NCBI GenBank assembly: GCA_038087875.1 | Contig: CM075995.1 | Coordinates: forward strand, 4,404,001-4,468,000 | Reading direction: 5' to 3' | DNA length: 64,000 nt | Source: Malacoraja senta | Lineage: Eukaryota | Shown: positions 5,803 through 28,013 of the stretch, in pieces | How positions within the stretch are numbered: the stretch's first letter is position 1 | Layout of the letters: each line of letters begins with the position of its first letter | The notes under the pieces: generated by a model | Told to the model about the DNA's origin: nothing | The model's input: only the letters and a program-made list of their open reading frames with translations | Database searches by the model: none | Program-made: the position numbers and the translations under genes

Positions 5803-7830
5803 ATATAACCATATAACAATATAACCATATAACAATTACAGCACGGAAACAGGCCATCTCGACCCTTCTAGTCCGTGCCGAACACGTATTCTCCCCTAGT
5901 TCCATATACCTGCGCTCAGACCATAACCCTCCATTCCTTTCCCGTCCATATAACTATCCAATTTATTTTTAAATGATAAAAACGAACCTGCCTCCACCAC
6001 CTTCACTGGAAGCTCATTCCACACAGCCACCCCTCTCTGAGTAAAGAAGTTCCCCCCCATGTTACCCCTAAACTTCTGTCCCTTAATTCTCAAGTCATGT
6101 CCCCTTGTTTGAATCTTCCCTACTCTCAGTGGGAAAAGCTTATCCACGTCAACTCTGTCTATCCCTCTCATCATTTTAAAGACCTCTATCAAGTCCCCCC
6201 TTAACCTTCTGCGCTCCAAAGAATAAAGCCCTAACTTGTTCAACCTTTCTCTGTAACTTAGTTGCTGAAACCCAGGCAACATTCTAGTAAATCTCCTCTG
6301 TACTCTCTCTATTTTGTTGACATCCTTCCTATAATTAGGCGACCAAAATTGTACACCATACTCCAGAATTGGCCTCACCAATGCCTTGTACAATTTTAAC
6401 ATTACATCCCAACTTCTATACTCAATGGTCTGATTTATAAAAGCCAGCACACCAAAAGCTTTCTTTACCACCCTATCTACATGAGATTCCACTTTCAGTG
6501 AACTGTGCACAGTTATTCCAAGATCCCTCTGTTCACCTGCATTCTTCAATTCCCTACCATTTACCATGTACGTCCTATTTTGATTTGTCCTGCCAAGATG
6601 TAGCACCTCACACTTATCAGCATTAAACTCCATCTGCCATCTTTCAGCCCACTCTTCCAACCGGCATAAATCTCTCTGTAGACTTTGAAAATCTACTTCA
6701 TTATCCACAGCTCCACCTATCTTAGTATCATCTGCATACTTACTAATCCAATTTACCACACCATCATCCTGATCATTGATGTACATGACAAACAACAGTG
6801 GACCCAACACAGATCCCTGTGGCACCCCACTAGTCACTGGCCTCCAACCTGACAAACAACCATCCACCATTACTCTCTGGCATCTCCCATTCAGCCACTG
6901 TTGAATCCATCTTGCTACTCCACCATTAATACCCAACCATTGAACCTTCTTAACCAACCTTCCGTGAGGAACCTTGTCAAAGGCCTTACTGAAGTCCATA
7001 TATACAACATCCACGGCTTTACCCTCATCAATTTCCCGAGTAACCTCTTCAAAAAATTCAAGAAGATTAGTCAAACATGACCTTCCAGGCACAAATCCAT
7101 GTTGACTGTTCCTAATCAGACCCTGTTTATCCAGATGCTTATATATATTATCTCTAAGTATCCTTTCCATTAATTTGCCCACCACTGACGTCAAACTAAC
7201 AGGTCTATAATTGCTAGGTTTACTCTTAGACCCCTTTTTAAACAATGGAACAACATGCGCAGTACGCCAATCCTCCGGCACTATTGCCGTTTCTAATGAC
7301 ATTTGAAATATTTCTGTCATAGCCCCTGCTATTTCTACACTAACTTCCCTCAATGTCCTAGGGAATATCCTGTCCGGACCTGGAGACTTATCCACTTTTA
7401 TATTTCTCAAAAGTGTCAGTACTTCCTCTTCTTTGAATCTCATAGTTTCCATAGCTACTCTACTTGTTTCCCTTACCTCACATAATTCAACATCCTTCTC
7501 CTTGGTGAATACCGAAGAAAAGAAATTGTTCAATATCTCCCCCATCTCTTTTGGCTCTGCAGATACCTGTCCACTCTGACTCTCTAATGGACCAATTTTA
7601 TCCCTCGTTATCCTTTTGCTATTAATATAGCTATAGAAACCCTTTGGATTTACTTTCACCTTACTTGCCAAAGCAACCTCATAACTTCTTTTAGCTTTTC
7701 TAATTTCTTTCTTAAGACTCTTTTTACATTTTTTATACTCCTCCAGCACCTCATTTACTCCATGCTGCCTATAAATATTGTAGATCTCTCTCTTTTTCCG
7801 AACTGTCCAATTTCCCTTGAAAACCATGGG
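5803..7830 (-). mobile_element. 5'-truncated CR1-clade LINE with an uninterrupted ORF2 reverse transcriptase region (5896-7827)
   Basis: KSPGPD, YRPVSLTS, QHGF, DFSKAFDKV, GVPQGSVLGP, YADD and RRRLRGDLIEVFK motifs; short 3' UTR and (ATATAACC)n-type tail; no endonuclease domain. Confidence 0.95.
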
Positions 7831-8367
7831 AAAACCCTTGAAAAACTATATGCACATTGAATTCTCCAAGTTCAGGTAACTAAACTACTAACAACATCTC
7901 CTCCGCCCCTTTTAATTCCCCCTTCACTTCCCTGTGTCCCACCTGGATTCTTGCCCATTTCTCGCCTTTCCCTCCCCCTGTCTCCTTCCACCTAAATTCC
8001 TCCGGCTTCACAACGCGCAACCTTTCCATCCTTATCTCACACCTGATTATTCCACACTGAAATGATCAGTGAAATGATCATTTTTACTGTCTTCATTTCT
8101 GGCCTTCATCCAACCATCTACCTATCAAAAACTCCTCTGACCTATATCTACCTATCACTTGCCAGGCTTTGTCCTGCCCCCTCGACATGAAACGTCACCT
8201 CTCCATAGTTCTCCAGAGATGTTGACTGCACCGCTTACTTACTTCAGCACTCTGTCTTTTATTCAAAAAACAAGCATCTGCAGTTCCCTGTGTCTCCACC
8301 TACGTATCTACTACCTTTGGTTTACATTTAAACCCCACCGCTATCACACCCTTTCTTTTGGCATGTA

Positions 8368-9022: not shown

Positions 9023-10456
9023 TAAACTACTTGTTCCAAACAAACAAACAAATGGTGGCGCAGCGGTAGAGCTGTTGCCTTACAGCACCAGAGACCCGGG
9101 TTCGATCCTGACTATGGGTGCTTGTCTGTACGGAGTTTTACGTTCTTCCCGTAACCTGTATGCATTTTCTCCGAGATCTTCAGCTTCTCCCCACACTCCA
9201 AAGGCATACAGGTTTGCAGGTTAATTGGCTTGGTGTAAATGTAAAATTGTCCCTAGTGTGTGTTGGGTAGTGTTAATGTGCGGGATTGTTGGTCGGTGCT
9301 TCGCTGGGTCAAAGGGCTGGTTCCGCGTTGTACCTTGAAACTAAACATACCAATAGGGATTGGTTGCTCTGACATCTGCAACACATATTTCAATATTTTA
9401 CGTGTTGCTGTCCAAAGATTAAAGCTTTGAAACGCTGACGTGATTGTCTGCTGTAGTTGCCGCTGACAGGGGATGGAATTTGGCATTTTCAGCAGCATCA
9501 TCAATGAATTCTCAATTTACTCCAAGTCCATTCACAAATTCGCAGACGACTCCCCCATAGTGGGCCGAATATCAATAGTAACATAGAAACATAGAAAATA
9601 GGTGCAGGAGTAGGCCATTTGGCCCTTTGGGCCAGCACCGCCATTCAATATGATCATGGCTGATCATCCAGAATTAGTACCCCGTTCTTGCTTTCTCCCC
9701 ATATCCCTTGATTCCGTTAGCCCTAAGAGCTATATCTAACTCTCTCTTGAATACATCCACTGAATTGGCCTCCACTGCCTTCTGTGGCAGAGAATTCCAC
9801 AGATTCACAACTCTCTGGCTGAAAAGGTTTTTCCTCATCTCAGTCATAAATGGCCTACTCATTATTCTTAAACAGTGACCCCTGGTTCTGGACTCCCCCA
9901 ACATCGGGAACATTTTTCCTGCATCTAGCCTGTCCAATCCCTTAAGAATTTTATATGTTCCAACTAGACAAAGTGGGTCCCATGTTCACACAGGAGGGCT
10001 GGTCCTCCAATGCAATATTCCACCTCTCCACTAATTCCAATAATGGTGGCCAGTGGGGGGGGGGGGAGACTTTCTGGAGCGCTAGTATGGGTATTGTGGG
10101 CTGAAGGGACTGGTTTCCTGAGGGCTAGTATGGACATTGTGGGCCAAATGGATTCTTGTGGTGACAGCTCAGTCACTCAAGCCTGATGTGCTGGCAGCTC
10201 ACTCACGCTGGTGGGCAAGCAGTTGACTCACGGCTATTGGTGGGCAGTGGAAGCAGGTTCTCTGGGTGCTTTCAAGAGAGAGCTAGATAGGGCTCTTAAA
10301 AATAGCTGAGTCAGGGGATATGGGGAGAAGGCAGGAACGGGGTACTGATTGGGGTTGATCAGCCATGATCACATTGAATGGCGGTGCTGGCTCGAAGGGC
10401 CAAATGGCTTACTCCTGCACCTATTGTCTATTATCTATTGTCTATTGCTTGAAATT

Positions 10457-11002
10457 CCATTTCAAGCAGGGTGCAAGGCCACCAAATTCAAATGCAGTTC
10501 CCTACCATTTCAATCAGGGTGCAAGGCCACCAAATTCAAGTGCAGTTTCTTACCACTTCAAGCAGGGTGCAAGGCCACCAAATTCAATTGCAGTTTCATA
10601 CCACTTCATGCAGGGTGCAGGACCACCAAACTCAAGTGCAGTTTCATGCCACTTCAAGCAGGGTGCAAGGCCAGCAAATGCTAGTGCTGTTTAATTCCAT
10701 TTCAAGCTGGGTACAAGGCCACCAAATTCAAGTGCAGTTTCATACCACTTCAAGCAGGGTGCAAGACACCCAAATTGAAGTGCAGTTTCATACCATTTCA
10801 AGCAGGGTGCAAGGCAACCAAATTCAAGTGCAGTTTCATATCATTTCATGCAGGGTGCAAGGCCACCAAATTCAAGTGCAGTTTCATACCATTTCATGCA
10901 GGGTGCAAGGCCACCAAATTCAAATGCAGGTTCATACCATTTCATGCAGGATGCAAGGCCACCACATTCAAATGCAGTTTCATACCATTTCAAGCAGGGT
11001 GA
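10457..11002. repeat. 48-bp minisatellite, ~11 copies (inside Helitron-like element)
   Basis: Unit ccatttcaagcagggtgcaaggccaccaaattcaagtgcagtttcata. Confidence 0.95.
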
Positions 11003-11377
11003 AACCACCATAAAACCACACAAAACACCACTTAAACACCACTCACGGTTCAGTAGAAATTCAGTGTGTTCAGTTGATTCACAGCTCAGACAGTGTCATG
11101 ACCTCTCCCTCCCTCTTCTTGCAGAGACTGAGCCACACCCACACTTCCAAGTTTTATAATCCCACCGGAAGGGGCGTGGCCTTCATGGCATGATTGACAG
11201 GAGAGAGATTCTCAACATTTTTTTGAACACTAATAACACTTTTATTTTTCATTGATGGGAAGAATCCTCTGCACCTGATGAGCAGAAGGCGACCGAGTAA
11301 GATGGCTAAAAATCACAGCAGTAAGTGGTAGCGTTTTATCTAAAATCAATATGAAGTGCAAACAGGAAGTTGTCAAG

Positions 11378-11992
11378 TAACCACCAACAACCATTTGCAG
11401 TGCAGCATTTCACGGCAGTTACCACCACCAGCAACCATTTGCAGTGCAGCATTTAATGGCAGTTACCACCACCAACAACCATTTGCAGTGCTGCATTTCA
11501 CAACAGTTACCACCACCAACAACCATTTGCAGTGCAGCATTTCAAAGCAGTTACCACCACCAACAACCATTTGCAGTGCAGCATTTCAAAGCAGTTATCA
11601 CCACCAACAACCATTTGCAGTGCAGCATTTCAAAGCAGTTACCACCACCAACAACCATTTGCAGTGCAGCATTTCAAAGCAGTTACCACCACCAACAACC
11701 ATTTGCAGTGCAGCATTTCAAAGCAGTTACCACCACCAACAACCATTTGCAGTGCAGCATTTCAAAGCAGTTACCACCACCAACAACCATTTGCAGTGCG
11801 GCATTTCACGGCAGTTACCACCACCAACAACCATTTGCAGTGCAGCATTTCACGGCAGTTACCACCACCAACAACCATTTGCAGTGCAGCATTTCAAAGC
11901 AGTTACCACCACCAACAACCATTTGCAGTGCAGCATTTCAAAGCAGTTACCACCTCCAACAACCATTTGCAGTGCACATTTCAAAGCAACCA
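11378..11992. repeat. 44-bp minisatellite, ~14 copies (inside Helitron-like element)
   Basis: Unit ccaccaacaaccatttgcagtgcagcatttcaaagcagttacca. Confidence 0.95.
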
Positions 11993-12419
11993 CATTTTCA
12001 TTTTCAAACCACATTAAGGGCACTCACAGTTGAGTAGACATGTGTTCAGTGTTATTCACAGCTCAGAGAGACGTGACCCTCTCGCTTCCTCCATCTTGCA
12101 GAGACTGAGTGAGGCACAACACTTCCGGGTTTTATAGTCCATCCCCCCTCCCACCAGCAGGGGCAGCAGAGAGAATGTCAACTTTTAAAAAACATTAATA
12201 ACTCTTTTATTTTTCATCAATGAGAAAAATCCTCTTGTCCTGCGCAGCATAGGGGGACTCTGAGTAAGATGGCCAAAAATCACAGCCGTAAGTGGCAGCG
12301 TTTTTTCAAAAATCATGAAACAGAAAAACAGGAAGTGGTCAAGATCTTACTTTTAGTAATATAGATAACATCCCCTCTCATCCTTCTGAATATATGCCCA
12401 GTCAATCCATTATTTCAAA

Positions 12420-13200
12420 TAATGATGAGACAGAGTACAGGAAGGAGATTGAGAACCTTGTAACCTGTGTCAAGACAACAACCTTTCTCTCAATGCCAGC
12501 AAGACAAAGGAGATAGTGATCAACATCAGGAAGCAAAGCGGTACCGATACATTGACGGCACCAAAGTAGAAATGGTTGAAAGCTTCAAGTTCCAAGGAGT
12601 AAAATCACCAGCAACATGGCCTTGATTAGCCATATAGAAGCAACGATCAAGAAAGCACACCAACGCCTCTACTTCCGTAGAACACATAGGAAGATTGGCA
12701 TGTCCCCAACAACTCTCACCAACTTAGAACTTTGCTGTAGAAAACATTTTACCGGGATGCATCACAGCTTGGTTTGGGAACAGCTCCATCCAAGACCGCA
12801 AGAAATTGAAACGAATTGGGGTCGCATCCCAGACCATCACACAAACCAATCTCCCATCCATCGACTCTGTTTATATCTCACGCTGCCTCGGCAAGGCCAG
12901 CAGCATGATTAATGATGAGTCGCACCCTCTCCACTCCCTCTTCTCCCCTCTACTTCAGGAAAGAGGTACAGAAGTGTGAAAACACATACCTCCAGTTTCA
13001 GGGACAGCTTCTTCCCAGCTGTTATCGGGCAACTGAACCATCCTACCAACAACTAGAGACTTTATCTTGCACTATACATTATTCCCTTTATCCTGGTTCT
13101 GTACACTGGGGACGGCTTGATTGTAATCATATATAATCTTTCTGCTGACTGTATAGTGCGCAGCAAAAAGCTTTTCACTGTACAATAAACTAAACTAAAC
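12420..13200 (+). mobile_element. Rex1/Babar-type LINE 3' fragment (continues from 9515-9577)
   Basis: KKAHQRLYF motif, shared 3' UTR and (CTAAA)n tail; similar copy at 14325-14900. Confidence 0.75.
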
Positions 13201-13795
13201 TTGTAGGTCAGATGAAATGCGAGGGTTTTGGAGCATTATTTTAAGATTGTACCACTTTGTTCTGACTTCATTAATGGAAATCGTTATTCTATATCTATCT
13301 TATTAATTTCCTCCACATTTCAAATGTCTCAATTAGATCACCCATCAATCATCTAAGCTTTTGAAAGTAACAGTTAAATTAATGGAACTTCTAAATTTGG
13401 AATTCATATTTTCATCCTTCAAACCCCGGCATCTCTCCGGTGGAGATACACAAAATGCTGGAGTAACTCAGCAGGTCAGGCAACGGTCAGGTCAGGAGAA
13501 AAGGAATAGGCGACGTTTGGGGCAGAACCCTTTTTCAGACCTGAAACGCCACCGATTCCGTTTCTCCAGAGATGCTGCCTGAACCATCTCTCCAGAGATG
13601 CTGTATAAACCAGCATCTGCAGTTCCCTCCTACACATCTCTCTGGGCCGCACCTCGTCCAAGGCCAATGTAAACATCCAGACTCGGTCAGGTACCCACAG
13701 AGGGATTTGTAATGCAAATCAACATGTCTTCATGTGATAATAAATTACACTTTGAAATATGACACAGCTAAACAGCAACAAATGTTAGCACGTAC

Positions 13796-13847
13796 CAGTC
13801 CATCTTTTAGCAGTGGCTTTGTCTTCTTTATTCCAATCTGGATATAA
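13796..13847 (-). CDS. DCDC2: DCDC2 coding exon 2 (52 nt)
   Basis: Acceptor ttcttctttccag, phase compatible with exon 1, reading (D)YIQIGIKKTKPLLKDGL (compare human NYLDIGEIKKRPMEV), donor GTACGT. Confidence 0.85.
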
Positions 13848-16800
13848 CTGGAAAGAAGAACATGCGTGGTTACTTGCTTTTCTTCATGTCAAGTCAAGTT
13901 TATTTGTCACATACACATACAAGATGTGCGGTGAAATGAAAGTGGCAATGCCTGCGGATTGTGCAAAAAACTACAGAACAGAATAGAACAGAGTCAGTAT
14001 TTACATGTTAGAGAAAACCCCCCAACAATTTTAAAAAGACACATCACAACAGTAATTAGTACAGTAAATTGGTCCCTGGTGAGATAAGAGTTTACAGTCC
14101 AGATGGCCTGTGGGAAGAAATTCCGTCTCAACCTCTCTGTTTTCACGGCATGACAGTGGAGGCGTTTGCCTGACCATAGCAGCTGGAACAGTCTGTTGCT
14201 GGGGTGGTAGGGGTCCCCCATAATGTCCATATCAGTGAGTGAAAGCATTTTATAATAAAGTACAGTGATATCAGAGGGAAACATGAGATGTTTTCCAATC
14301 TCTCTGGTTCTTTGAGGTACATAAGAATGATGGTGCCGAAGTGGAGATGGTTGAAAGCTTCAAGTTCCTCGGAATAAATGTCACCAGTAATTCGTTCTGG
14401 ATCAGCTACATCGACGCAACAGGCAAGAAAGCACACCATCACCCCTACTTCCTTAGGATTAAGAAGTTTAGAATGTCCCCAACAACCCTTACCAACTTCT
14501 ACAGATCCGCCATAGAAAGCATTTTATCGGAATGCATCACAGCATGGTTTAGGAACAGCTCTGTCCAAGACCACGAGAAATTGCAGGGAATTGTAAAGGG
14601 AGTCCAAACCATCACACAAACCGATCTCCTTTACATCGTTTCTTCCCAGCTGTTATCAGGCAAATGAACCCTCCTCTCACCAACTAGAGTGTGAACCTGA
14701 CCTCATAGGAGACCTTCAAACTATCTTTAATTGGACTTTGCTGGGCTTTATCTTGCATTAAATGTTATCCCCTTCATCATGTATCTGTACACTGTGGACG
14801 GCTTGATTATAATCATGTATAGTCATTTCGCTGACTGGATAGCACGCAACAAAAATCTTTTCATTGTACCTCAGTCAGCGCGACAATAATAAACTAAACT
14901 GAAAAGTAAAATAGAATCAAATGATAAATGAAACGCAAAAGATCCTTGCAGAACTATATGAAATATAATGTGGAAAAGTTTTATCATTCACTTTGGGAGA
15001 AAAGATTAAATACTGGAGGTTTTTTTTGAATGGTGAGAAATTGAGAGGTATTCAGAGGCACCTTGCTGCACATTAACCACTGACTATTTACATGCAAGTA
15101 TCACAAGAGTCATAAGGTCTTTTATTTGAGGTAAAACCAAGAACCAGAGGACATAGGTTTAAGGTGCGAAGGGCAAGATTTAATAGAATTTTAAAAATTA
15201 CTTGGACAAATACTTGGATAGAAAACGTCTAGATGGACATGGGCCAGACACGGTCAAATGGGTCAAGATTAGATGGGGCATCTTGGCTGGCATGGACAAG
15301 CTGGGCCTGTTTCCATCAGCTTGACTCTATGATTCCAATAATAAAGGTACGCACTGTTCCAAGTAGATTTGAGAACAAGAGTAGAGATGCCTTAATGCAA
15401 TTAACAAGGATTGCACCTGTATTGTTTTTCACAGGTCTGGTCTCCAAACCTAAGGAAGATATAGATGCAATAAAGGGAGTCAAGAATCAAGTGTGTTCGA
15501 TTGTCATAATAAATAGAACAATGGAATTCTTAGGTGCTGCAGCTAACATGCCCATTAATGCTATAACACAGAAATAAATACAGAATAAGCAATAATGCAA
15601 TGTTAATAATTAATGATTCATCTAATTGATTTCTATGATGGGGTGGTTTATTTTATGAGGAAGATTAAGAAGAAACTCTTTACTCAGAGGGTGGTGAATC
15701 TGTAGAATTCATGAGCACAAACAGCTGTGGAGGCCAAGTCTATGGATATTGAGTCGGAGATTGAGAGATTCTTGATTAGTACGGGTTATGGGGAGAAGGC
15801 AGGAGAATCGGGTTGAGAGGGAAAGACAGATCAGCCATGATTGAATGATTTGATGAGCTGAATGGCCTAATTCTGCTCCTAGAACTTATGAAACATGCAA
15901 AATCCTTATGGACCTTGACAGCATGATGCAAAAATTCTGTGCTCACAGATTGGGATGTCTAGAACCAGGGACCACAGTGTCAGAATAAGGAGTCAGAATA
16001 AGGGGTCAAACTTTGACATTCTCTACCCATAAGGGGAATTCTAGAAACATAGAAACATAGAAAATAGTTGCAGGAGGAGGCCATTCGGCCCTTCGAGCCA
16101 GCACCGCCATTCATTGTGATCATGGCTGATCGTCCCCAATCAATAACCCGTGCCTGCCTTCTCTACCCATATGTTTTATAGTTGAGCATATCCAAGAGAA
16201 AGGTTGATAGATTTTTCAATATTGAGGAAATTGAGGGAATGGGTTACCTGCAGGAAAGAGGGTTGAGATTAACAATCAGCCATGAAACATCAGAAAGCAG
16301 GCACACAGGGCTGAATGACCTATTCCTGTTTTTATTCCCATCTTGCTATATAGAACTAACTATAGTTTCTTTATGTTGCATCCTTGACATGGATTTATCC
16401 ATTAACACCCCTCCTTCCACACGGTCACAGGGAGAACATACAAACTCTGTACAGAAAGCACCCGTAGTCAGGGTCTCTGGCACTGTTGCGCCACTATGTC
16501 GCCCGTTCTTCTGAATCACCTCATATATTTCCACTTTGTACTCCATCTGCTCTGTTGACCTGACCACTCATATTTCCACTTTATCATCAGTAAGCTCGGA
16601 AATATTGCAATTAGAGCCCTCATTCAAATCATTGACATTGATTATGAATAGCTGGGGTCCAAGTGCCAATCGGTGCAGTACCCGACTAGTCATAGCCTAC
16701 ATCCTGTTACAGCCTGCATGCCATTATCAGGCAACTGAATCATCCTACCACAACTAGAGAGCAGTACTGAACTACTATCTACCTCATTGGTGACCCTCAG

Positions 16801-17050
16801 GCTGGCTTTGATCGGACTTTACCAGCTTTGCCTTGCGCTAAATTATATTCCCTTATCATGTATCTGTACACTGTAAATGGCTCGATTGTAATCATGTATA
16901 GTCTTTCAGCTGACTGGTTGGCACGCAAGAATTTTTTTTCACTGTACCTGACAATATACTAAACTGAACTAAACATGAGATCTAAATTACGCACATGAAA
17001 GGAAAAAATTAACTTTCTCTCTTCGTACTATCGTAATTTGTAAAGGTTAA

Positions 17051-17609
17051 AGGGCCTGTCCCACCAGCATGCGATTGCATGCGTCTAGCGCGACCAAACG
17101 TGGTCGCTTGAGGTGTACGCGCGGGGCCAGTCCCACTTCGAACCGCGGAGGCATATGGAGTTGTGCGGGGCTGGTCCCGAGATCATACTCACCAATCAGC
17201 TGGGCGGCAGGATGCGGGCCGACTGAATTTGGACGTCGCACGGCATCGGGCGGTGACGTCGTCACGCAACGGCACGCCGGGCGGTGACGTCATCGCGCAG
17301 CGCTACGCGCTAGGCGTACACCATCAAGACGCTGCGTACGACGTCGAGACGCTGCGTACGACGTCGAGACGCTGCGTACGCCCGTCGAGACGCTGCGTAC
17401 GCCCTCAATGCACCTGCGGGCTGACAGGCAGTTGGCGCGCGGGATTTTCGAACAGTGCAAGATTTTTGGACCCCCGCGCGATGTCGGGACCAGCCCCGCA
17501 CAACTCTGTACGCCTCCGCCGATCGGTGGGACCGGCCCCCCGTACGCCTCAAGCGACCACGTTTGGTCGCGCTAGACGCATGCAATCGCGTGCTGGTGGG
17601 ACAGGCCCT
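17051..17609. mobile_element. PIF/Harbinger-type MITE
   Basis: Long TIRs starting AGGGCCTGTCCCACCAGCA, TAA TSD on both sides, CpG-rich, internal 18-bp tandem repeat. Confidence 0.9.
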
Positions 17610-18687
17610 TAACGGTGGTAAAGTTACTGTAGGGATGCACAATTTTAAAAAATAACCTAAACATTGGCATTGTAAAATTGAAACAGTTTTAATTCACTGG
17701 CAGTCTTGAAAAACATACCAGCCTTTTGTTCAAGAACAGAACATGGATTACATGGATAGGTCAGGTTTAGAGGGATTATGGGCCAAGCGCAGGCAAGTAG
17801 GACTAGAGCAGATGGGATATGTTGGCCGATGTGGGCAAGTTGGGCCGAAGGGCCTGTTTCCACACTGTATCACTCTTTGACTCCATAACAGAACCGGCAT
17901 GAACAACAACATATTTACAAGATGAATTGGCAACTGAATGCACATTGTTTGGCTCTTGAGAATAACTGTCGTACTTGGACTTCGCTATTATGGTGACAAT
18001 TATTAATTTTGCAGGTAATTTAATTTAGAAATAGATATATTGAATGAGGAGATAGATAAATATTTGAGAGATGGAGGAATTGAGGGTTAAGGGGAACTGG
18101 CACAGAAGTGTTGATCTATATATGAGTTCATCTATTGATTAGTACCCCTGAGTGTAAGGGGTTATGAGGAGTAGGCCTGAGAATGGGGTTGAGAGGGAAA
18201 GATAGATCAACCACGAATGAATGGCAGAGTAGACTAGATGGGCCAAATGGCCTAATTCTGCTCCTATCACAGGAACTTATGAACATACTCTAATATACTA
18301 ATGTCATTTTAGAGTATAACACCTCAAAGCGACTTTATTCAAATTAATGTTAGGAACACTGAACTTCCATTTCATTGTGTTCTTTACATTGTTTTGTTCA
18401 ACTTTGTGGGTTAATTTATTTCCAGTTCAAACAACGTGTGTTTGTTGCTGCAACACTGCTATGGACTCACTTCACTAGGTTTTCTGAATGGCGGAACGCA
18501 CTTGGAACCCGACGACTTTAGTTAAACCCATCCATTTTACACGAACAAAGTCTGAAACTTTTTTTTTGACAAAGACGCTGACTTTGTACTTGACCCACTA
18601 AAATGGCAATAAATCATTACTATAGATGATAATGGTTAAATTACATGTTTCCAAGTGACATAAATCCCTCTGGGCATTGAAAATCCT

Positions 18688-18880
18688 GAAGATAGACGGA
18701 AAAAGCTGGAGTAACTCAGCGGGACAGGCAGCATCTCTGGAGAGAAGGAATGGGTAACGTTTCGGGTCAAGACTGCTCTTCAGACTGAAGAAGGGTCTCG
18801 ACCTGAAATGTCACCCATTCCTTCTGCCCAGAGATGCTGCCTGTCCCGCTGAGTTACTCCAGCTTTTTCTGTCTATCTTC
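18688..18880. repeat. Palindromic Penelope pLTR-derived unit (representative; similar units near 25525, 31812, 44343, 56325, 56777, 57489)
   Basis: ~95-bp arms inverted about cttcagactgaag (18778-18790). Confidence 0.85.
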
Positions 18881-20749
18881 GGTTTAAGCCAGCTTTTGCC
18901 GTATATTTTTTTTCTCTCTCTCTCTGCTTAACAGAGCAACAGAACAAAAACAGCAGTCAGCAGAAATCATGTTTGGAGCCAGTGTATTACATGGGCCACT
19001 TTGAAAAGTATTCGATTGTTAGAATGTGGATGATGAGGAATTTCTTTAGACTGAGGGTAGAATTGATTGCCACAGATAGCTTTGGAGACCAAGACATTGG
19101 GTATTTTTAAAGTAGATGTTGATAGATTCTTGATTCGTAAGGGCGTCAGAGGAGAAGGCAGGAGAATGGGGTTAAGAAGGAAAAATAGATCAGCCATGAT
19201 CGAAGGGCGGAGTAGACTCGATGGGCTGAATGGCCTAATTCCGCTCCTTTGTCTTACATTTTTGGGTATTCTCAATATTTAACTGAATCTAAATATTGTG
19301 CATTAACAGTGCATAATATATGTCCCTTCATATAAAGATATAGGCAAGCACAGATGTATGAATGCACATAATATGGTGCTTCTTAATAGCTATTAAAATA
19401 ATATTGTTTATATTGTACAAATAGCAGGGGTCTGAATTTTTTTTTCCACCATTTACAGTTTAACTTTATTTAAATTTAATGTGAATGGACCTAACCCTAA
19501 CCATTTACTGTTTTAGACAATAGACAATAGGTGCAGGAGTAGGACAATTCGGCCCTTCGAAACAGCACCGCCATTCAATATGATCATGACTGATCATTCC
19601 CAATCAGTATCCCGTTCCTGCCTTCTCCCCATATCCCTTGACTCCACTATCTTTAAGAGCTCTATCTAACTCTCTCTTGAAAGCATCCAGAGAATCGGCC
19701 TCCACTGCCTTTTGAGGCAGAGAATTCCACAGACTCACAACTCACTGGGTGAAAAAGTTTTTCCTCATCACTGTTCTAAATGGCTTACCTCTTATTCTTA
19801 AACTGTGGCCCCATTTGCTTCATTGTAATTAAGTGTGAATAAATCTTATTTAGTACTGTAGTATGTATAATATATAACAGTGCATGAATAACAGTGCATA
19901 CCCATTTACATTTTATGTCGATTTTAATTTAGTGTGGATAGATCTAAAATCTAAGAACTATAATATGTATAATATATAACAGTGCATGTAAAACAGTGCA
20001 TAATAGTGCGTAACCATTTACAGTTTTTGTTTATTTTAATTTAATGTGAATAGATCCTAACCCTAACCCTTTACAGTTTTTGTATATCTAAATTCAGTAG
20101 AGATCTTATTTCTAAGTGCTGCAGTATGTGTAAACGGGATGCATCACAGCTCGGTTTGGGACCAGTCCATCCAAAACCGCAAGATATTGTAGCGAATTGT
20201 GGACGCAGCCCAGACCATCACACAAACCAACCTCCCTTCCATTGACTCTATTTATACCTAGGTCATAGCATCAGAGAACATAGGTGCAGGAGTAGGCCAT
20301 TCGGCCCTTCGAGCCAGCACCGTCATTCAATCTGATCATGGCTGATCATCCAGAATCAGTACCCCGTTCCTGCTTTCTCCCCATAATCCCTTGATTCCGT
20401 TCGCCCCAAGAGCTATATCTTGAATACATCCATTGAATTGGCCTCCACTGCCTGCTGTGGCAAATAACTAAACTGTTAAACTAAACTGAATATTAGGGTC
20501 TCGACCCGAAACGTCGCCAATTCCTTCTCTCCATAGATGCTGCCTCGCCTGCTGAGTTACTCCAGCATTTTGTGTCTACCTTGAATAATGCATTATAAAG
20601 TGCATGTATAACAGTGCATGACCCTTGCAGTTTCTGTTGATTTTAAGTCAGCGTGGATTGATCTCATAAGGACTGTAAAGTATAGTATATGCTGATTTCC
20701 AGTCACATAGAAGTAGATGGGTTAACTAGCGGTTCACACATTCACTCAC

Positions 20750-21036
20750 TCGAGTTTCTTGAACTTCTCCTTGCCTCCCGCCACGTACTGCTTGCCGCTG
20801 TCCAGCTCCTGCAGCTGGTAAACGCGGTGTCCCTGCTGCGGGGTGTAGATGTTGCGGACGGCGCCGAACGGCGGCTCCAGCCCGTTGGTCACCTCCTTGA
20901 GGAACGCCTCGAACGTGGACATCCGCCGCTCGTTGATCACGAACTTTCTGCCGGCGAAGAAGGGGTCCCCGTTGCGGTAAACCCGCACACTCTTCACCGC
21001 CGGCTGCGACAGAAAGCTCGGCTTGGCCGCTGCCAT
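20750..21036 (-). CDS. DCDC2: Doublecortin domain-containing protein 2, first coding exon (first DCX domain)
   Basis: ATG at 21036. Translates MAAAKPSFLSQPAVKSVRVYRNGDPFFAGRKFVINERRMSTFEAFLKEVT...PFGAVRNIYTP...YVAGGKEKFKKL, matching the vertebrate DCDC2 N-terminus. Ends phase 2 at a GA|GTGAGT donor. Confidence 0.95.
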
Positions 21037-21265
21037 AGCCGGCGTTGGAGGGACTGGGGTACCGGGGAGAAGTGAGACGGGGAGGTAGGGGAGAGAGGGC
21101 AAGGGCAAAATACTTCTCTACCTGGCCGCCGCGGTCAGATGGGCCGATTGGTGTTACATTTGGGATTGCAGGGGCCCGGGGGGGGAAGCGTTGCGGGAAG
21201 CGGCCGGAGTTGCCACTCACTCGGTGGGGAAATGTATCCACTGCTTTGAACTGCAACACTCCGCC

Positions 21266-21312
21266 GTGTCCCGGGCAACTGTGCATGTGCGTTCCAGCGT
21301 CCCCAAGGCAAC
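21266..21312. promoter_or_regulatory. Two RFX X-box-like motifs in the GC-rich DCDC2 promoter region
   Basis: GTGTCCCGGGCAAC (21266-21279) and GTCCCCAAGGCAAC (21299-21312). DCDC2 is a ciliary gene known to be RFX-regulated in mammals. Confidence 0.55.
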
Positions 21313-21374
21313 GCGACGCCGTGGAGCTCGGCTGCACACGTGTGTGTGTGTGTGTGTGTGTGGAGGCTGCGCCG

Positions 21375-22452
21375 CTCCCTCTCCCCGTCCTCCTCCTCCT
21401 CCTCGTCCTCCGCTCCCTCTCCCCGTCCTCCCCCTCCTCCCCTCCCCCGTCCTCCTCCTCCTCCTCCCCCTCCTCCTCCCCCTCCTCCTCGCCCTCCTCC
21501 TCCCCCTCCTCCCCCTCCTCCCCTCCTCCTCCTCCCCTCCTCCTCCTCCTCGTCGTCCTCCTCGTCGTCCTCCTCCCCCTCCTCCCCTCCTCCTCCTCCT
21601 CCTCCTCCTCCTCGTCGTCCTCCTCGTCGTCCTCCTCCCCCTCCTCCCCTCCTCCTCCTCCTCCTCCACCTCCTCCTCCTCCTCACCCCCTCACCTCCTC
21701 TCATTCCTCACCTCTCCCCCTCACCACCTCCTCCCCCTCCTCCTCCTCCTCACCCCCCTCACCTCCCCACCTCCTCCTCCTCCTCCTCCTCCTCCTCCCC
21801 CTCCTCCTCCTCCACCTCCTCTCACCCCTCACCTCTCCCCCTCACCACCTCCTCCTCCTCCTCCTCCTCCTCCTCCTCCCGCTCCCCTCCTCTCACCCCT
21901 CACCTCTCCCCCTCACCTCCTCACCTCTCCCCCTCTCCTCCTCTCGCCACTCACCTCCGCTCCCTCCTCCCTCTCCACCTCTCCCCCTCCCCTCCTCTCC
22001 CACCTCCCTCTTCCAGCTCCCTCTTCCCACTCCCCTTCCCTCTCCCCCACCCCTTCCCCTTCCCTTTCCCTCTCCCTCCTCCCATGGAGCTCGGCCCACA
22101 CGTGTATTTGGAGGCTTGGCCATTCCTCCCTCAGACTTCCCTCTCTCTCTCTCCCCTCCCCCTTTCTTTCTCCCTTCCCCTTCTCCTCTGTCCTGCTCCC
22201 CCCATCTCCCTCTCCCACCCCTCCTCTCCCCCACTTTCCCTCGACTCCTTCCCCCTCCCTCCTCCTCCTCCTCCCCTCTCCCTCTCCTCCCCCTCTCCCT
22301 CTCTTCCTCCTCCCCCTCTCCTCTTTCCCCTCTCCTCCTCCTCCCCCTCTCCCTCTCCTCCTCCCCCCTCTCCTCTTTCCCCTCTCCACCTCCCCCCCCT
22401 CTCCTCCACCTCCTCCTCCTTCCCGCCTCCTCCTCCTCCTCCTCTCCCATCT
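21375..22452. repeat. ~1.1-kb polypyrimidine (CCT)n/(CT)n low-complexity tract, preceded by (TG)n at 21340-21361
   Basis: Direct inspection. Confidence 0.97.
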
Positions 22453-23093
22453 CTGGAGAACATGGATGTGAGGTTTGTGGTCGAAACCCGTCAGAACATT
22501 CTGAGAATCTGTAGAAGGTTCGCGACTCAAAACATTACCTATCCATGTTCTTCAGAGCTACAGCCTGACCTACTGAGTTACTCCAGCACTTTGTGTCCTT
22601 TTGTGTATTTAACCAGCATCTGCAACTCTTTGTTTCTACTGTGTGGAGGCCAAGTCAGTGGGTCTTTTTAAAGCAGAGATTGATAGGTTGTCAAAGGTTA
22701 CGGGGAGAAGGCAAGTGAACAGGGTTGGGACGGAAAAATAGATCAGCCGTGATCGAATGGTGGAGCAGACTCAATGAGCCGAATGGTCTGACTCTGCTCC
22801 TCTGTCTAATAATCTTATGATTATGAAAGGTGAGGCGGCCTGGAATGTACACACTGTTCTCGGGTATGAATGGTCTGGCTACACTTGGTCACAAGTTAAT
22901 GACAAACAAATGTCTACACAGATCAGTGCGGTCGACTGCATTGTTGATATCGGTCGTGGATGATTTATTTTTCTCCGGAGACCCAAGGAACTGCAGATGC
23001 TGGAATCAACACAAAGTGCTGGAGTCTCTCAGCACATCCAGAAGACTTTATTTTTCCTCTCCAGTTTTGTAGGTTCCCGAATGGTTAATGATG

Positions 23094-23512
23094 CCTATTA
23101 TGCCTCCTGGCATGTAGGGCAGCAACGAAGGTCCTCCACTCCTGTCTGTTCTGGGCTAGCTTCTGGACACTACCCCAGGTCCCTTCCGGTGCCCAGTGCA
23201 GGGCTATTCTTGGGATGGTATCTGATTCACCTTGCATCTGTCGATAGCCCTGGAAGTCCATCACGCCCAGTAGTGTTGATTCCTTCAGTTGCTGTTTCCG
23301 TAACATGTTTGTTTTACGAGACAGGGTTGTTAGCCCTGTGCTCAACCTCCAACCTGGAGGACCAATGGATCGCTCTTCGTCTCGCCTCCACCCTTCGACC
23401 TGTCCAGCATGGGAGACCCTAACAGGAGACGAATCTCCCGCTGACATAGTTCTAGGGGTCACTGAGACACACAAGCTCCCCAACCATGACAAGGTTGCAA
23501 TCCAACGGGGAG
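23094..23512 (-). mobile_element. Internally deleted (bipartite) RTE-clade retroposon
   Basis: RTE-type 5' UTR (accttgtcatgg..ggggagcttg; ggtcctccaggttggaggttgagc..gggctaacaaccc) joined to an RTE C-terminal remnant (ALHWAPEG/WGSVQKLAQNRQEWRTFVAAL); flanking AATGATG duplication. Confidence 0.75.
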
Positions 23513-26269
23513 AATGATGACAGGTGGAACAGGAAAGACGTTGAAGTAACTCAGCAAGGTCAGGCAGCATCCCTGGAGAACATGGATAGGTGACGTTTCA
23601 GGTCGGGACCCTTCTTCAGACTGATGTTGCTTCTCCAGGGATTTGTTTAGTTTACCTTAGTTTAGAGGTACCGCGCGGAAACAGGCCCTTCGGCCCACCG
23701 AGTCAGTGCCAGCCAGCAATCCTCGCACACTATCGCTACCCTTACACACTAGGGACAATTTACAATTTTTACCAAAGCCAAATAACCTACAAACCTGTTC
23801 GTCTTTAGAGTGTGGGAGGAAACCGGAGCATCTGGAGAAAACCCACGCAGGTCACAGGGAGAACGTGCAAACTCTGCACAGACAGCACCCATAGTCAGGA
23901 TCGAACCCAGGTCTCTGGCGCTGTAAGGCAGCAACTCTACCATTGCGCCACCGTATGTTGCCTGACCTGCTGAGTTGCCCCAGCATTTTGCATCTTCCCT
24001 TGGTAAACCAGCATCAGAGGTTCTTTGTTTCTACCGTAGACCGGGAGCTACAGCAGGGGGCTGGGGAGTGGATCATACTTCAGCAGTGCACTCCCTCTCA
24101 TTTACACAGTGCCCCCGAGACTCAAGATTCTCACCGCCATGCCCTACACTCCACCACTTTTGCCTCAGGGCCTTCTGTAAGTCAATAGGCATGTTATACC
24201 TTATCAAGGAAACTTTTGAAGACAGCCTTAAATCTTTTCCTCCATCCACAATCTAATCTCTTACGACAGAGCTCAGGCCAGAGCATCTATTTCAGGAACA
24301 GTTTAAGGTGAGAGGAAAAATTATTTTTCTAGGCACCTGAGGGACAACTTTTTCACACAGTGAAACACAGTGGGACTGTGGAACGAGCTGCCAGAGGAGG
24401 TAATTGAGGAAGATATAACAGTATTTAAAAAAATACTTGGACAATTACATTGATAGGAAAGTTTTAGGGATATGGGCCAGACACGGGCAAATGGGACGAG
24501 CTTAGTTGGGGCATCTTGGTCAGCATGGATGAGTTGGGCTGACACGCCTGTTTCCATGCTCTGTGACTCATGGTTACTATGCCGTGTTATTCCACCACTT
24601 TGTGTTCTATGGAAGATTCCAGCATCTGCAATTCATTGTGTCTCCATCTGTTTTTGGAGTTTGGTGGTGTCAGCCATGCCAACAATGAGCTGGTTGTCGG
24701 AGCCAAAAGCACGCAGTTGGGGCCTTGATGGCAAGTGGATGTCGGCCTGGGTGAGCTTATGGACATTGCTTTGCTCATCCTACCAGTGGAATTAGAAGAT
24801 TATGGCAAACCATCTCTCCAGATCTTTGAGAGTTCTTTTAAATATTTTTAAGGCGGAGATTGACAAATTCTTGATTAGTACGCGTGTCAGGGGTTATGGG
24901 GAGAAGGCAGGAGAATGGGGTTGAGAGGGAAAGATAGATCAGCCATGAATGAATGGCAGAGTAGACTGATGAATGATGGGCTTTGCGCTGGGTTTGTGGT
25001 TTAATTTTCAATCATCCCTTTCTTCAAATAGCCAAAGACTACTATAGTAATAATAATAATACACTTTATTGTCATTGTAAATACATACAACGAAATTTCA
25101 GGAGCACTGCCCGAGCGGAGCTCCAACGTATCAGATAAATAATAACGAATAACGAATAACAAAAACGGCCAGAGAACGTCAAGTTAAGTTATAATGTGCA
25201 ATATTTCACAGTATAGTGTTGTAGCAGTACATAATATTGGCTATGGGGGGTGTGTGTTCAGTGCAGAGTTCAGAGCGGTGATGGCCTTGGGGTAGAAACT
25301 GTTTGTTAATCTTGTGGTGTGTGATTTGATGGACCTGTAACGCTTTCCTGAGGGCAGAAGGGCAAACAAGTGATGTGCGGGTTGAGATGGTAGGAGCAAT
25401 AAGGAAATGTAATCTCACTTAAAAATAAGAATGATACAGGAGAGGAACACATAGAAAGGTGGAAACTGACGTGAAACAGAAAAGGCAGCCTGAGATGGGT
25501 TGAATAAGCGGTCTATTTCTGTAGATAGACACAAAGGGCTGGAGTAACTCAGCGGGTCAGGCAACATCTCTGGAGAAAAAGGATGGATGACGTTTCGGGT
25601 CGGGACCTTTCTTCAGACGTTTCTGGTCGAAACCCTGCTTCATTGTTCTATTTCTATGTTATTTATGGAATTCTAGTGGCCATCTTTAAATTAAGCTCCA
25701 AGGGGTGTTATCATAAATGAACTGTTTGCAAACTTCCCACCTTCGAAAGATCAGAATTTCACGCCAGTTACCCTGGCCATCCCTCCTTATTGCTACTTTC
25801 ATCACAACCTATGGACAGCACAGTGAACAAAACACTCTGGCAAAGCTGCTATCATTTCTGCTGACCAATTATCATGTTTCAATGTTCAGAAAAATTTCAG
25901 GATGATCTTATTCAAACATATCTATATAATTAAAACTCATCTTGACCACTTCCTGTCTGCACTGTATATTGATTTTAGAAAAAATGCTAACATATATTGC
26001 TATGATTTTTGGCCATCTTACTCACAGTCCTCCTCCGCTGAGCAGGACCCGTGGATTTTTCCCATCGATGAAAAATAAAAAAGTTATGAGTGTTTAAAAA
26101 ACCTTGAGTCCTCTCGCCTGTCAATCACCGTGATGAAGGTAACAACCTTTCCGGGGGGGGGCGGGGAGGGGAGGCAGGACTATAAAACCTCAGATGCCTG
26201 AACATGACTCAGTCACTCTGCACGATCGCGAGGGAGAGGCCACGACTCATTCTAGGCTGTGAATCAACT

Positions 26270-26765
26270 GAAACTGCAATGGCAATGGAAATGAAATGAA
26301 AATGCAATGAGCTGTTTGGCCTGCCCTGTGCTTGAAACTGCAATGGCAATGGAAATGAAATGAAAATGCAATGAGCTGTTTGGCCTGCCCTGTGCTTGAA
26401 ACTGCAATGGCAATGGAAATGAATTGAAAATGCAATGAGCTGTTTGGCCTGCCCTGTGTTTGAAACTGCAATGGCAATGGAAATGAAATTAAAATGCAAT
26501 CAGCTGTTTGGCCTGCCCTGTGCTTGAAACTGCATTTTCATTTCTTTTCCATTGCCATTGCAATGAGTTGTTTGGCCTGCCCTGTGCTTGAAACTGCAAT
26601 GGCAATGGAAATGAAATGAAAATGCAATGAGCTGTTTGGCCTGCCCTGTGTTTGAAACTGCAATGGAAACGGAAATGAAATGAAAATGCAATGAGCTGGT
26701 TGGCCTGCCCTGTGCTTGACATTGAAATGGAAATGAAATGAAATGAGTTGTTTGGCCTGCCTGAA
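26270..26765. repeat. 64-bp minisatellite, ~8 copies (inside second Helitron-like element)
   Basis: Unit gaaactgcaatggcaatggaaatgaaatgaaaatgcaatgagctgtttggcctgccctgtgctt. Confidence 0.95.
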
Positions 26766-27207
26766 ACTACTAATTTCGGCCCACCAAGCCCTTATTAGCC
26801 AAGAAACCAGTCCCTTTTGCCCCAATGCCCGTATAAGCCCAGGAGGAGCATTTTGGCCCAAAAGGCCCATTCCAGACCAGGAAAAGCACAGAAAAACTGC
26901 CTATAATTGAGATTTAACTCCGATTTTCTTAAAGAGCCTCTTCGGCCCATCATGCCTGTACTAGCCCAGGAGGAGTCCCTTCAGCCCATCAGTAAATATT
27001 CCCCCTGCAAGTATTAAACCTCACCCGAGTATTTTTCTCCCTCCCTTCATTGGCTCCCTGTGAGTTCCAGGCCAGGATAGACTTTCCTCCATTGCTGTGA
27101 TCTGCAGAAAAAGATGAAAAATGTCTGAAATTGATTCTCCACCCTCTCCCCCTTCTCTCTCACAGAGTCTCTCACCTGTTTTGAGCTGAATTTCGGGCAG
27201 TTTCTTA

Positions 27208-27336
27208 GCCGCCAGCCCTCCAGGCCTGAGTGACTGAGCTGCAAGCCCACCAGGCCTGAGTGACTGAGCTGCCAGCCCACCAGGCCTGAGTGACTGAGCT
27301 GCCAGCCTACCAGGCCTGAGTGACTGAGCTGCCAGC
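27208..27336. repeat. 30-bp tandem repeat, ~4 copies
   Basis: Unit gccagcccaccaggcctgagtgactgagct. Confidence 0.9.
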
Positions 27337-28013
27337 ACAAGAATCCATTCAACCCACAATGTCCATACTAGCCCTCTGGAAACCAGTCCCTTTGGCCCAC
27401 AGCACCCATACTAGCACTCCAGAAAGCCCCCCCCCCCCCCCCCCACTGGCCACCAATATTGGAATTGGTGGAGAGGTGGAATATTGCATTGGGGGACCAG
27501 CCCCAACGGGTCCCACTTAGTCCAGTAAGATTCTAAAAGGCTGGCAGGGTAGTTATCAAGTTTGAGATGCAAGAGAGTGAAGATGCTGTCATCTGCAGCA
27601 AATAAAACTGGAAAAACTTGGTGGGTCAAGTGGCATCTGTGGAGACAAAAAGAAAGTTGATTTACAGGTTGATTGGTCGATACAATACGATACGTTAGAA
27701 CGTTATTTGTCCCAGGAGGGAAATTGATCTGCCAACAGCCATAATAACACAAAATGCACAAAACGCAAATTACATGAAATCCTGATGCAGGGTCTCGACC
27801 AAAATGTTGAATATCCTTAGGCCTCCATAGATGCTGTTTGATTCACTGAGTTCCTGCAGCAGAGATACAGCAATAAAACAGGCCTTTTGTCCCACCAAGT
27901 CCACACTGACCATCTATCATCCATTCATGCTAGCTTATCAAAAAAAACTCTTGCCTATGTCAACCTACTGCCTGCGATGCTTTATCCTGCCTCTCCTCTC
28001 TTCCAGTCAATTA

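What the first reader, a model, noticed from the sequence alone, without database searches (positions are those of the whole stretch)
9964..12365. Non-coding Helitron-like family built as promoter module + variable minisatellite + conserved 3' end
Seen: two elements (9964-12365 minus, 25921-27525 plus) share a ~350-bp 5' module and a ~250-bp 3' module, start with TC, end CTAG/CCAG, sit between A and T and have no TSD. Their middles are different arrays (44-bp and 48-bp in one; 64-bp and 30-bp in the other), all rich in TGCA/GAAATG words. Copy 1 has the 5' module twice (12365-12010 and 11375-11030), each followed by its own array. Merging the two 3' ends reconstructs TGGGACCC-AAC-GGGTCCCA-cttagt-CTAG. 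Established: these termini and the subterminal hairpin are rolling-circle (Helitron) hallmarks. Inference: a modular family that generates and spreads new minisatellites.
Basis: partly seen in the sequence, partly recalled or inferred. Interest (0 to 1): 0.8.

Follow-up and report, generated by a model that had tools for sequence, protein, structure and literature searches.

The report
Promoter-bearing non-autonomous Helitron with minisatellites
Two copies of a very common protein-less jumping-DNA family sit cleanly between an A and a T, carry tandem-repeat arrays and a predicted gene promoter, and were likely moved by a rolling-circle (Helitron) enzyme made elsewhere in the genome, a design already known from other animals.

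Summary
Both elements run TC to CTAG/CCAG. Intact LINE copies in the window show that both went into A|T with no target duplication. In four public runs the left boundary is sharp, with 154-319 unrelated AT-rich flanks per run. In four runs the family consensus supplies the 3' hairpin, which each window copy has partly deleted. This is a non-autonomous Helitron1 family.

All three 5' modules keep TATA and initiator motifs 29-30 nt apart; transcription is untested. Copy 1 is likely a compound of two subfamilies, its modules being only 73% alike.

Corrections: the 30-bp unit belongs to the shared 3' module and lacks GAAATG. Copy 1 holds a missed nested LINE tail. That the element generates its arrays is not shown.

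Helitrons with central repeats (Cg_HINE, DINE, HelitronY1) or promoters (HelibatN3) are known, and so are skate Helitron1 families. The RepHel partner, the Repbase match and 5'-3' linkage in other copies could not be tested. New member of a known kind; interest 0.3.

The parts
9964..12365 (-). Copy 1, compound non-autonomous Helitron, 2402 bp, TC...CTAG, inserted at A|T inside a LINE fragment
12006..12365 (-). Outer 5' module (5a): Helitron left end plus predicted core promoter (TATAAAA 12136, initiator A 12106, donor-like GTGAGT 12027)
11380..11988 (-). 44-bp minisatellite, 13.9 units; 13 full units differ 2.8% from their majority
11027..11377 (-). Inner 5' module (5b), lacking the first ~22 nt; 73% to 5a; DECA motif 11200, TATA 11158, initiator A 11129, GTGAGT 11046
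10457..11001 (-). 48-bp minisatellite, 11.4 units; 7.0% from majority; ends in a 10-bp-stem hairpin at 10468-10446
10240..10441 (+). Nested 5'-truncated LINE 3' tail, antisense to the Helitron, bracketed by CAATAG (10447-10442 and 10239-10234)
   Evidence: 80-95% matches to 13 other window LINE tails
9964..10233 (-). Copy 1 3' module: degenerate 30-bp units, C-run, hairpin with a 10-nt deletion, CTAG
25921..27525 (+). Copy 2, non-autonomous Helitron, 1605 bp, TC...CCAG, inserted at A|T inside a short LINE remnant
25921..26268 (+). Copy 2 5' module: left end, DECA 26118, GC-box-like 26158, TATA 26181, initiator A 26211
26269..26746 (+). 64-bp minisatellite, 7.5 units; one unit has a micro-inversion at 26531-26562 between TGCA palindromes
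26747..27206 (+). Non-array middle with two degenerate copies of a 3'-module sub-repeat (26775-26833, 26941-26988) and a splice-acceptor-like tract ending 27165
27207..27336 (+). 30-bp array, 4.3 units, a family-wide part of the 3' module
27260..27525 (+). Copy 2 3' module; a 20-nt deletion behind 27503 removes the left hairpin arm; ends CCAG

Best explanation
These are two decayed copies of a high-copy, protein-less element family with Helitron1 ends, inserted between A and T without target duplication and likely mobilised in trans by a RepHel transposase made by an autonomous Helitron elsewhere in the genome. Inferred from Helraiser: RepHel would nick at the 5' TC, copy one strand through the element, stop at the hairpin before CTAG, and insert the product at an AT site. 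Since mainly the ends are read, the interior is likely free to change: short units would expand by slippage or unequal exchange and then be copied as passengers. Copy 1 likely arose when the left end plus 44-bp array of one subfamily became joined upstream of an element of another subfamily and used its 3' terminator; a LINE tail likely inserted later. The 5' module holds a predicted Pol II core promoter (TATA, initiator), more likely the ancestral element's own transposase promoter (about 60%) than a captured host one (about 30%). Shown: termini, boundaries, empty sites, family hairpin, many insertions, motifs. Inferred: enzyme, order of events, promoter origin and activity.
For: Empty sites: 4 of 18 and 3 of 6 non-self LINE hits span the two junctions with nothing added. 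Left boundary in 4 of 4 runs: summed depth in X1 falls from 562,506 (12360-12366) to 295 (12374-12380), and loose ends behind 12366/12367 number 154, 284, 319 and 206 contigs, with agreement only 0.35-0.38 and AT-rich letters. Behind-12365 is not among the six rows shown per run, which suggests A at -1 in most copies (inferred from a cut table). 3' hairpin in the family consensus in 4 of 4 runs. No terminal inverted repeat (2 and 5 matches in 15). These are the HLE1 features as defined in PMC11417382 (Introduction read). AT targets, AT-rich flanks, hairpin terminator, end bypass and cross-mobilisation are shown for Helraiser (PMC4778049, passages). Compound Helitrons are described in bats (PMC4224331, passages). 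Modules 5a and 5b are 73% alike, no closer than 5b is to copy 2 (72%), and a 5b-type variant appears as a 62-contig consensus in X1. Promoter: TATAAAA-N19-24-TCAGT occurs 3 times in the window, all in the modules (shuffle mean 0.08); 13 of 13 motif columns are invariant against 6 of 21 spacer columns. Skates are known to carry HLE1: Repbase Helitron-1_AmRa and -2_AmRa, and 11,154 HLE1 calls in the little skate (PMC11417382 supplement rows).
Against: Copy 2 ends CCAG, not CTRR, and the family's last four bases were not read out. Neither window copy has an intact hairpin. No RepHel was identified: only 1 of the 35 ORFs of 150 aa or more was scanned, and it is a reverse transcriptase; no genome is held. 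Linkage of 5' and 3' modules is seen in 2 of 2 window copies only, since the contigs are too short to span an element. The three promoter matches are homologues, not independent events, and the pattern was chosen after seeing them. The host being a skate rests on earlier AI notes and my recall of its repeats.
Confidence: 0.85

Rival explanations
1. Same Helitron, but the 5' module is a captured host promoter, first exon and splice donor (HelibatN3-like), amplified because transcribed elements spread better.
For: TATA and initiator at canonical spacing in 3 of 3 modules, an exact DECA (TALE) motif in 2 of 3 (the only 2 in the window), and GTGAGT about 80 nt behind the predicted start in both copy 1 modules. 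In bats, promoter-carrying Helitrons reach higher copy numbers.
Against: The motifs lie within ~290 nt of the left end in three modules only 72-80% alike, as an inherited element promoter would; an autonomous Xenopus Helitron has factor-binding peaks at its 5' end. No CCAAT in any of the 3 modules, and weak exon-side donor bases (ACT, ACC). No donor gene was found, though none could be searched.
Confidence: 0.3
2. The element actively makes new minisatellites (for example by slippage during rolling-circle copying or transcription from its promoter).
For: Three different arrays begin just behind a 5' module. The 44-bp array is homogeneous (2.8% from majority).
Against: Each array was seen once. 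Common descent of the 48- and 64-bp units is marginal (3 of 300 shuffles with single units, 30 of 1000 with majority units, among 12 and 6 comparisons), so neither independent birth nor turnover is shown. Ordinary slippage and unequal exchange would give the same picture.
Confidence: 0.25
3. The family targets one spot in the 3' end of the host's CR1-type LINE.
For: Both window copies sit 10 nt apart in the same LINE coding motif. AT sites in homologues of that spot are 32 of 4589 in the window (0.7%).
Against: Left flanks in 4 of 4 runs show no common sequence (agreement 0.35-0.38), and depth continuing into copy 1's exact LINE flank is 295 against 562,506 in X1. The spot is AT-rich, which Helraiser favours. 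The coincidence was noticed after the fact. A weak bias of a few percent at copy 2's offset site is not excluded.
Confidence: 0.05
4. It is a Helentron/DINE-type (HLE2) element or a TIR MITE with a TA duplication.
For: Conserved ends around central tandem repeats are typical of Cg_HINE and DINE. TA abuts both ends of copy 2.
Against: Insertion is A|T, not T|T; no TIRs; the TATA is already present in uninterrupted LINE copies; the TC start and hairpin-CTAG end are HLE1 features.
Confidence: 0.03

Closest known systems
Canonical Helitron1 (HLE1): Helraiser/Helibat1 and non-autonomous HelibatN1-N3 (PMC4778049 and PMC4224331, passages read; PMC11417382, Introduction read)
   Same: 5' TC, hairpin plus CTAG, A|T insertion, no TSD or TIR, AT-rich flanks, many non-coding derivatives, compound elements
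   Different: Here the interior is mostly minisatellite arrays, and no transposase partner was identified
Repbase Helitron-1_AmRa and Helitron-2_AmRa (thorny skate, HLE1) and HELIANO's 11,154 HLE1 calls in the little skate (PMC11417382, supplement rows seen)
   Same: HLE1 class and, if the earlier notes are right that the host is a skate, the same lineage; likely candidates for the autonomous partner
   Different: Only names and counts were seen; the sequences could not be compared, so identity with this family is untested
Cg_HINE Helentrons of the Pacific oyster (PMC7492417, abstract read) and Drosophila DINE elements (PMC9659126, passages)
   Same: Non-autonomous rolling-circle elements made of shared flanking modules and different central tandem repeats, sometimes two arrays in a row; they spread the repeats
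   Different: Cg_HINE are Helentrons (HLE2 group: short TIRs, T|T targets; DINE's place in that group is recalled); this family has HLE1 ends and a promoter-like left module
C. elegans HelitronY1/Y1A with an internal 35-bp minisatellite (bioRxiv 10.64898/2026.08.08.743475, passages) and Xenopus Heli2Xen with 166-bp arrays (PMC12001565, Results part 1 read)
   Same: Internal minisatellites carried by Helitrons and their non-autonomous derivatives
   Different: Different units; function is claimed in the worm, and none was tested here
HelibatN3 (NUBPL promoter, first exon, splice donor; PMC4778049, passages)
   Same: Promoter-like segment followed by a donor-like site inside a non-autonomous Helitron
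   Different: There the host origin and the transcription are shown; here neither is

Membership tests
Helitron1 (HLE1), non-autonomous | 5' TC terminus | tested here: met
   2 of 2 copies; sharp family boundary at this place in 4 of 4 runs
Helitron1 (HLE1), non-autonomous | 3' CTRR terminus, copy 1 | tested here: met
   CTAG at 9967-9964
Helitron1 (HLE1), non-autonomous | 3' CTRR terminus, copy 2 and family-wide | tested here: inconclusive
   Copy 2 ends CCAG, one transition from CTAG; the family's last four bases are not in the rows shown
Helitron1 (HLE1), non-autonomous | Short hairpin near the 3' end | tested here: met
   Family consensus in 4 of 4 runs reads TGGGACCC-AAC-GGGTCC, continued by CA in copy 2; broken by deletions in both window copies
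Helitron1 (HLE1), non-autonomous | Insertion between A and T without target duplication | tested here: met
   Uninterrupted LINE copies span both junctions with nothing added (4 of 18 and 3 of 6 hits)
Helitron1 (HLE1), non-autonomous | No terminal inverted repeats | tested here: met
   2 of 15 and 5 of 15 matches between the ends
Helitron1 (HLE1), non-autonomous | Autonomous RepHel element sharing both ends | not testable with these tools
   No genome held; Repbase and Dfam sequences not available
Helentron/Helitron2 (HLE2; Cg_HINE, DINE type) | Insertion between T and T | tested here: not met
   A|T in 2 of 2 copies
Helentron/Helitron2 (HLE2; Cg_HINE, DINE type) | Short terminal inverted repeats | tested here: not met
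   (the 15 terminal bases compared; a subterminal offset was not scanned)
TIR MITE with TA duplication | TIRs plus TA target duplication | tested here: not met
   No TIR; TATA already in 2 of 3 uninterrupted LINE copies
Derivative of Repbase Helitron-1_AmRa or -2_AmRa | Near-identical first and last 30 bp | not testable with these tools
   Only names seen in the supplement
Promoter-capturing Helitron (HelibatN3 type) | Core-promoter motifs and donor-like site in the element | tested here: met
   TATA-initiator in 3 of 3 modules; GTGAGT in 2 of 3
Promoter-capturing Helitron (HelibatN3 type) | Homology of the promoter to a single-copy host gene, and transcription from it | not testable with these tools
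   No eukaryote genome search and no start-site data were available

The most novel reading that the evidence does not exclude
The left module is a working Pol II promoter with TALE (DECA) input and a splice donor, kept across diverged subfamilies and spread in thousands of copies through skate and ray genomes, where it starts transcripts into minisatellite arrays or traps host exons in early embryos or the germ line.
Probability: 0.15. Interest if true: 0.6.

Novelty: new member of a known kind. Interest (0 to 1): 0.3.

Why it matters
As it stands it is a clean vertebrate example of a known process: non-autonomous Helitrons swapping ends and carrying tandem repeats. It is useful for repeat annotation in a poorly curated lineage. 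It would matter more if the promoter works, because a high-copy TATA-initiator cassette with TALE sites could have seeded start sites across batoid genomes, as Helitrons did in bats, and that is directly testable with start-site data.

Tried and rejected
No whole genome is held, so no full-length copies could be extracted. Two scans of metagenome contigs, for a 3'-end pattern and a 5'-module pattern, gave 0 and 0 matches. Look-ups of earlier findings by the 3' module, by the 5' module, by Helitron words within this genome and by a long word list gave nothing. I laid 6 of the 23 listed runs (X1, X2, X7, X9; X1, X2, X8, X12), and only on the two end stretches, not on the arrays or on a whole element. 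Rfam: 0 matches in 9800-27700. A window scan for the intact hairpin gave 1 match with 3 mismatches, within chance. Common ancestry of the 44/48/64-bp units: marginal for 48 vs 64, weak or absent for the others. LINE-spot targeting: rejected as a dominant preference. TA duplication at copy 2: rejected. CCAAT beside DECA: 0 of 3 modules. A shared copy 2 insertion in organisms A and B is hinted by contigs starting 17 and 23 nt inside the element (records 7 and 16), below the tool's 31-letter bridging rule, so it is not counted. The Lep1 paper (PMC3276263) is not held and was not read. Summed depths were not used as copy numbers.

Full report
Observation. Copy 1 spans 12365-9964 on the minus strand (2402 bp, TC...CTAG) and copy 2 spans 25921-27525 on the plus strand (1605 bp, TC...CCAG); each has A before and T after it. 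The three 5' modules align at 72-80% by BLAST and the two 3' modules at 86% over 244 columns. No further copy or solo module exists in the window. Tandem Repeats Finder gives the four arrays as described.

Insertion sites. Both copies interrupt the same LINE family, which gives natural empty sites. With the flanks of copy 1 joined, 4 of 18 non-self hits run across the junction (68-89% identity) with no added bases. For copy 2, 3 of 6 non-self hits do so (83-87% over 31-36 bp). The TA that abuts both ends of copy 2 is already TATA in 2 of those 3 copies, so it is not a duplication. The ends are not inverted repeats. The LINE spot translates to GHLIETYKII in an intact copy and matches the C-terminal GDLIEVFKMM of the window's reverse-transcriptase ORF at 5896-7845. 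The label CR1-type is recalled, not tested.

Family level. No genome is held, so I used public runs. Of 23 listed runs, 16 hold 0.29-0.53 of the sampled words of 25400-28000, from 8 coded organisms (that stretch also holds other repeats). On copy 1's left end, 4 of 4 runs show a sharp boundary. In X1 the summed depth falls from 562,506 at 12360-12366 to 295 at 12374-12380. Loose ends behind 12366 and 12367 number 154, 284, 319 and 206 contigs, median 255 letters, with AT-rich consensus and agreement 0.35-0.38, as expected of unrelated flanks. Behind-12365 is not among the six rows shown per run, which suggests that A precedes TC in most copies; the table is cut, so this is an inference. On copy 2's right end, the loose-end consensus behind 27503 runs through TGGGACCCAACGGGTCC in 4 of 4 runs (155-217 contigs). 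The family therefore has an 8-bp stem with an AAC loop ending 10 nt before the 3' end. Copy 2 lacks 20 nt including the left arm and copy 1 lacks 10 nt including the right arm, so neither folds it. The family's last four bases were not read out, and the contigs are too short to link the two ends in other copies. The tool warns that summed depth is no copy number; I claim only hundreds of distinct junctions per run and a likely much larger family.

The 30-bp unit has no GAAATG and background TGCA. It is a fixed part of the 3' module, present degenerate in copy 1 and as a loose-end consensus in 95-142 contigs per run. Copy 1 holds an antisense LINE tail at 10441-10240, bracketed by CAATAG, though the left CAATAG cannot be separated from the LINE's own repeat tail. 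Copy 2 has a 460-bp non-array middle. The inner 5' module of copy 1 lacks the first ~22 nt and is 73% like the outer module and 72% like copy 2's, so a recent local duplication is unlikely. A 5b-type variant is the consensus of 62 contigs in X1. Whether the 48- and 64-bp units share an ancestor is open: 3 of 300 shuffles reached the score with single units, 30 of 1000 with majority units, among 12 and 6 comparisons.

Promoter. TATAAAA followed 19-24 nt later by TCAGT occurs 3 times in 64 kb, once in each module (shuffle mean 0.08). The spacing from TATA to the initiator A is 30, 29 and 30 nt. All 13 motif columns are invariant against 6 of 21 spacer columns. The copies are homologous and the pattern was chosen after seeing them, so this shows conservation, not three independent events. 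That this spacing is canonical for Pol II promoters is established knowledge, recalled. An exact DECA motif, the TALE site of early zebrafish embryos (PMC6023610, passages), lies in 2 of 3 modules and nowhere else in the window; CCAAT is in 0 of 3. Both copy 1 modules have GTGAGT about 80 nt behind the predicted start, with weak exon-side bases. Nothing here shows transcription.

Mechanism. The features match HLE1 as defined in PMC11417382 (Introduction). For Helraiser, AT targets with AT-rich flanks, the hairpin as terminator, bypass of a defective 3' end and cross-mobilisation of non-autonomous elements are shown (PMC4778049, passages); compound Helitrons made from two copies are described in bats (PMC4224331, passages). 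I infer that a RepHel from an autonomous relative moved these elements, that the interior drifts because mainly the ends are read, and that arrays grown by slippage or unequal exchange are copied as passengers. Copy 1 is likely a left end plus 44-bp array from one subfamily joined to an element of another. The hairpin deletions and the LINE tail are most simply later damage. The promoter is more likely the ancestral element's own (about 60%) than captured (about 30%), because it sits close to the left end in all three diverged modules; an autonomous Xenopus Helitron has factor-binding peaks at its 5' end (PMC12001565, Results part 1 of 3).

A side lead, mostly rejected. The two copies sit 10 nt apart in the same LINE motif, and such AT sites are 32 of 4589 in the window. 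The family-wide flanks show no common sequence, and depth running on into copy 1's exact flank is about 0.05% of that at the terminus in X1. A dominant target preference is excluded; a weak one is not.

Comparison. Shared ends around different central repeats, sometimes two arrays in a row, is the Cg_HINE design (PMC7492417, abstract) and the DINE design (PMC9659126, passages). Internal minisatellites occur in C. elegans HelitronY1 (bioRxiv 10.64898/2026.08.08.743475, passages; its supplements were not opened) and Xenopus Heli2Xen. Promoter carriage is known from HelibatN3. Earlier AI notes call this genome a skate, which I did not test. Repbase lists two thorny-skate HLE1 families, and HELIANO counted 11,154 HLE1 in the little skate, 4,818 and 1,651 in two rays (supplement rows). 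Their sequences could not be compared, so this family may already be catalogued. Five literature searches (listings only, open-licence PMC and bioRxiv) showed no paper describing this family. Two earlier scan notes from other genomes describe much the same picture; they are unchecked and not independent support.

Verdict. Real, and a non-autonomous Helitron1 family (confidence 0.85); new member of a known kind; interest 0.3. The boldest open reading, a working embryo-type promoter spread in thousands of copies, has probability about 0.15 and would deserve 0.6.

Noticed in passing
window 12366/9963 and 25920/27526, against intact LINE copies at 40113-40137, 36762-36786, 41402-41426: Both Helitron copies inserted 10 nt apart in the same LINE coding motif; such AT sites are 0.7% of all AT sites in the window. 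Family-wide flanks show no dominant target.
   Followed up: partly
window 10240-10447: Antisense 5'-truncated LINE tail inside copy 1, bracketed by CAATAG, which also matches the LINE's own repeat tail (possible priming by microhomology).
   Followed up: partly
window 26531-26562: One unit of the 64-bp array carries a 32-bp micro-inversion bounded by TGCA palindromes, as template switching would give.
   Followed up: partly
window 10468-10446 (minus): Perfect 10-bp-stem hairpin at the end of the 48-bp array (z -4.66, chosen after seeing it); possibly a cryptic terminator, but no CTRR follows.
   Followed up: partly
window 26747-27206: Copy 2's middle has two degenerate copies of a 3'-module sub-repeat and a strong polypyrimidine-CAG tract ending at 27165, possibly a captured splice acceptor.
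   Followed up: no
run X12 on window 12333-12365: 39 contigs share only the first ~33 nt of the left end and continue into one different common sequence (agreement 0.73): likely a sister family with the same terminus.
   Followed up: no
runs X1 and X2 on window 27503-27744 (records 7 and 16): Single contigs begin 17 and 23 nt inside the element and run through copy 2's flank, hinting that the insertion is shared by two coded organisms; below the bridging rule.
   Followed up: no
window 5896-7845 (minus): Stop-free 649-aa LINE reverse-transcriptase frame (Pfam RVT_1, E 1.8e-33).
   Followed up: partly
window 21388-22448: About 1 kb of degenerate (TCC)n and C/T-rich repeats overlapped by long low-complexity ORFs.
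   Followed up: no
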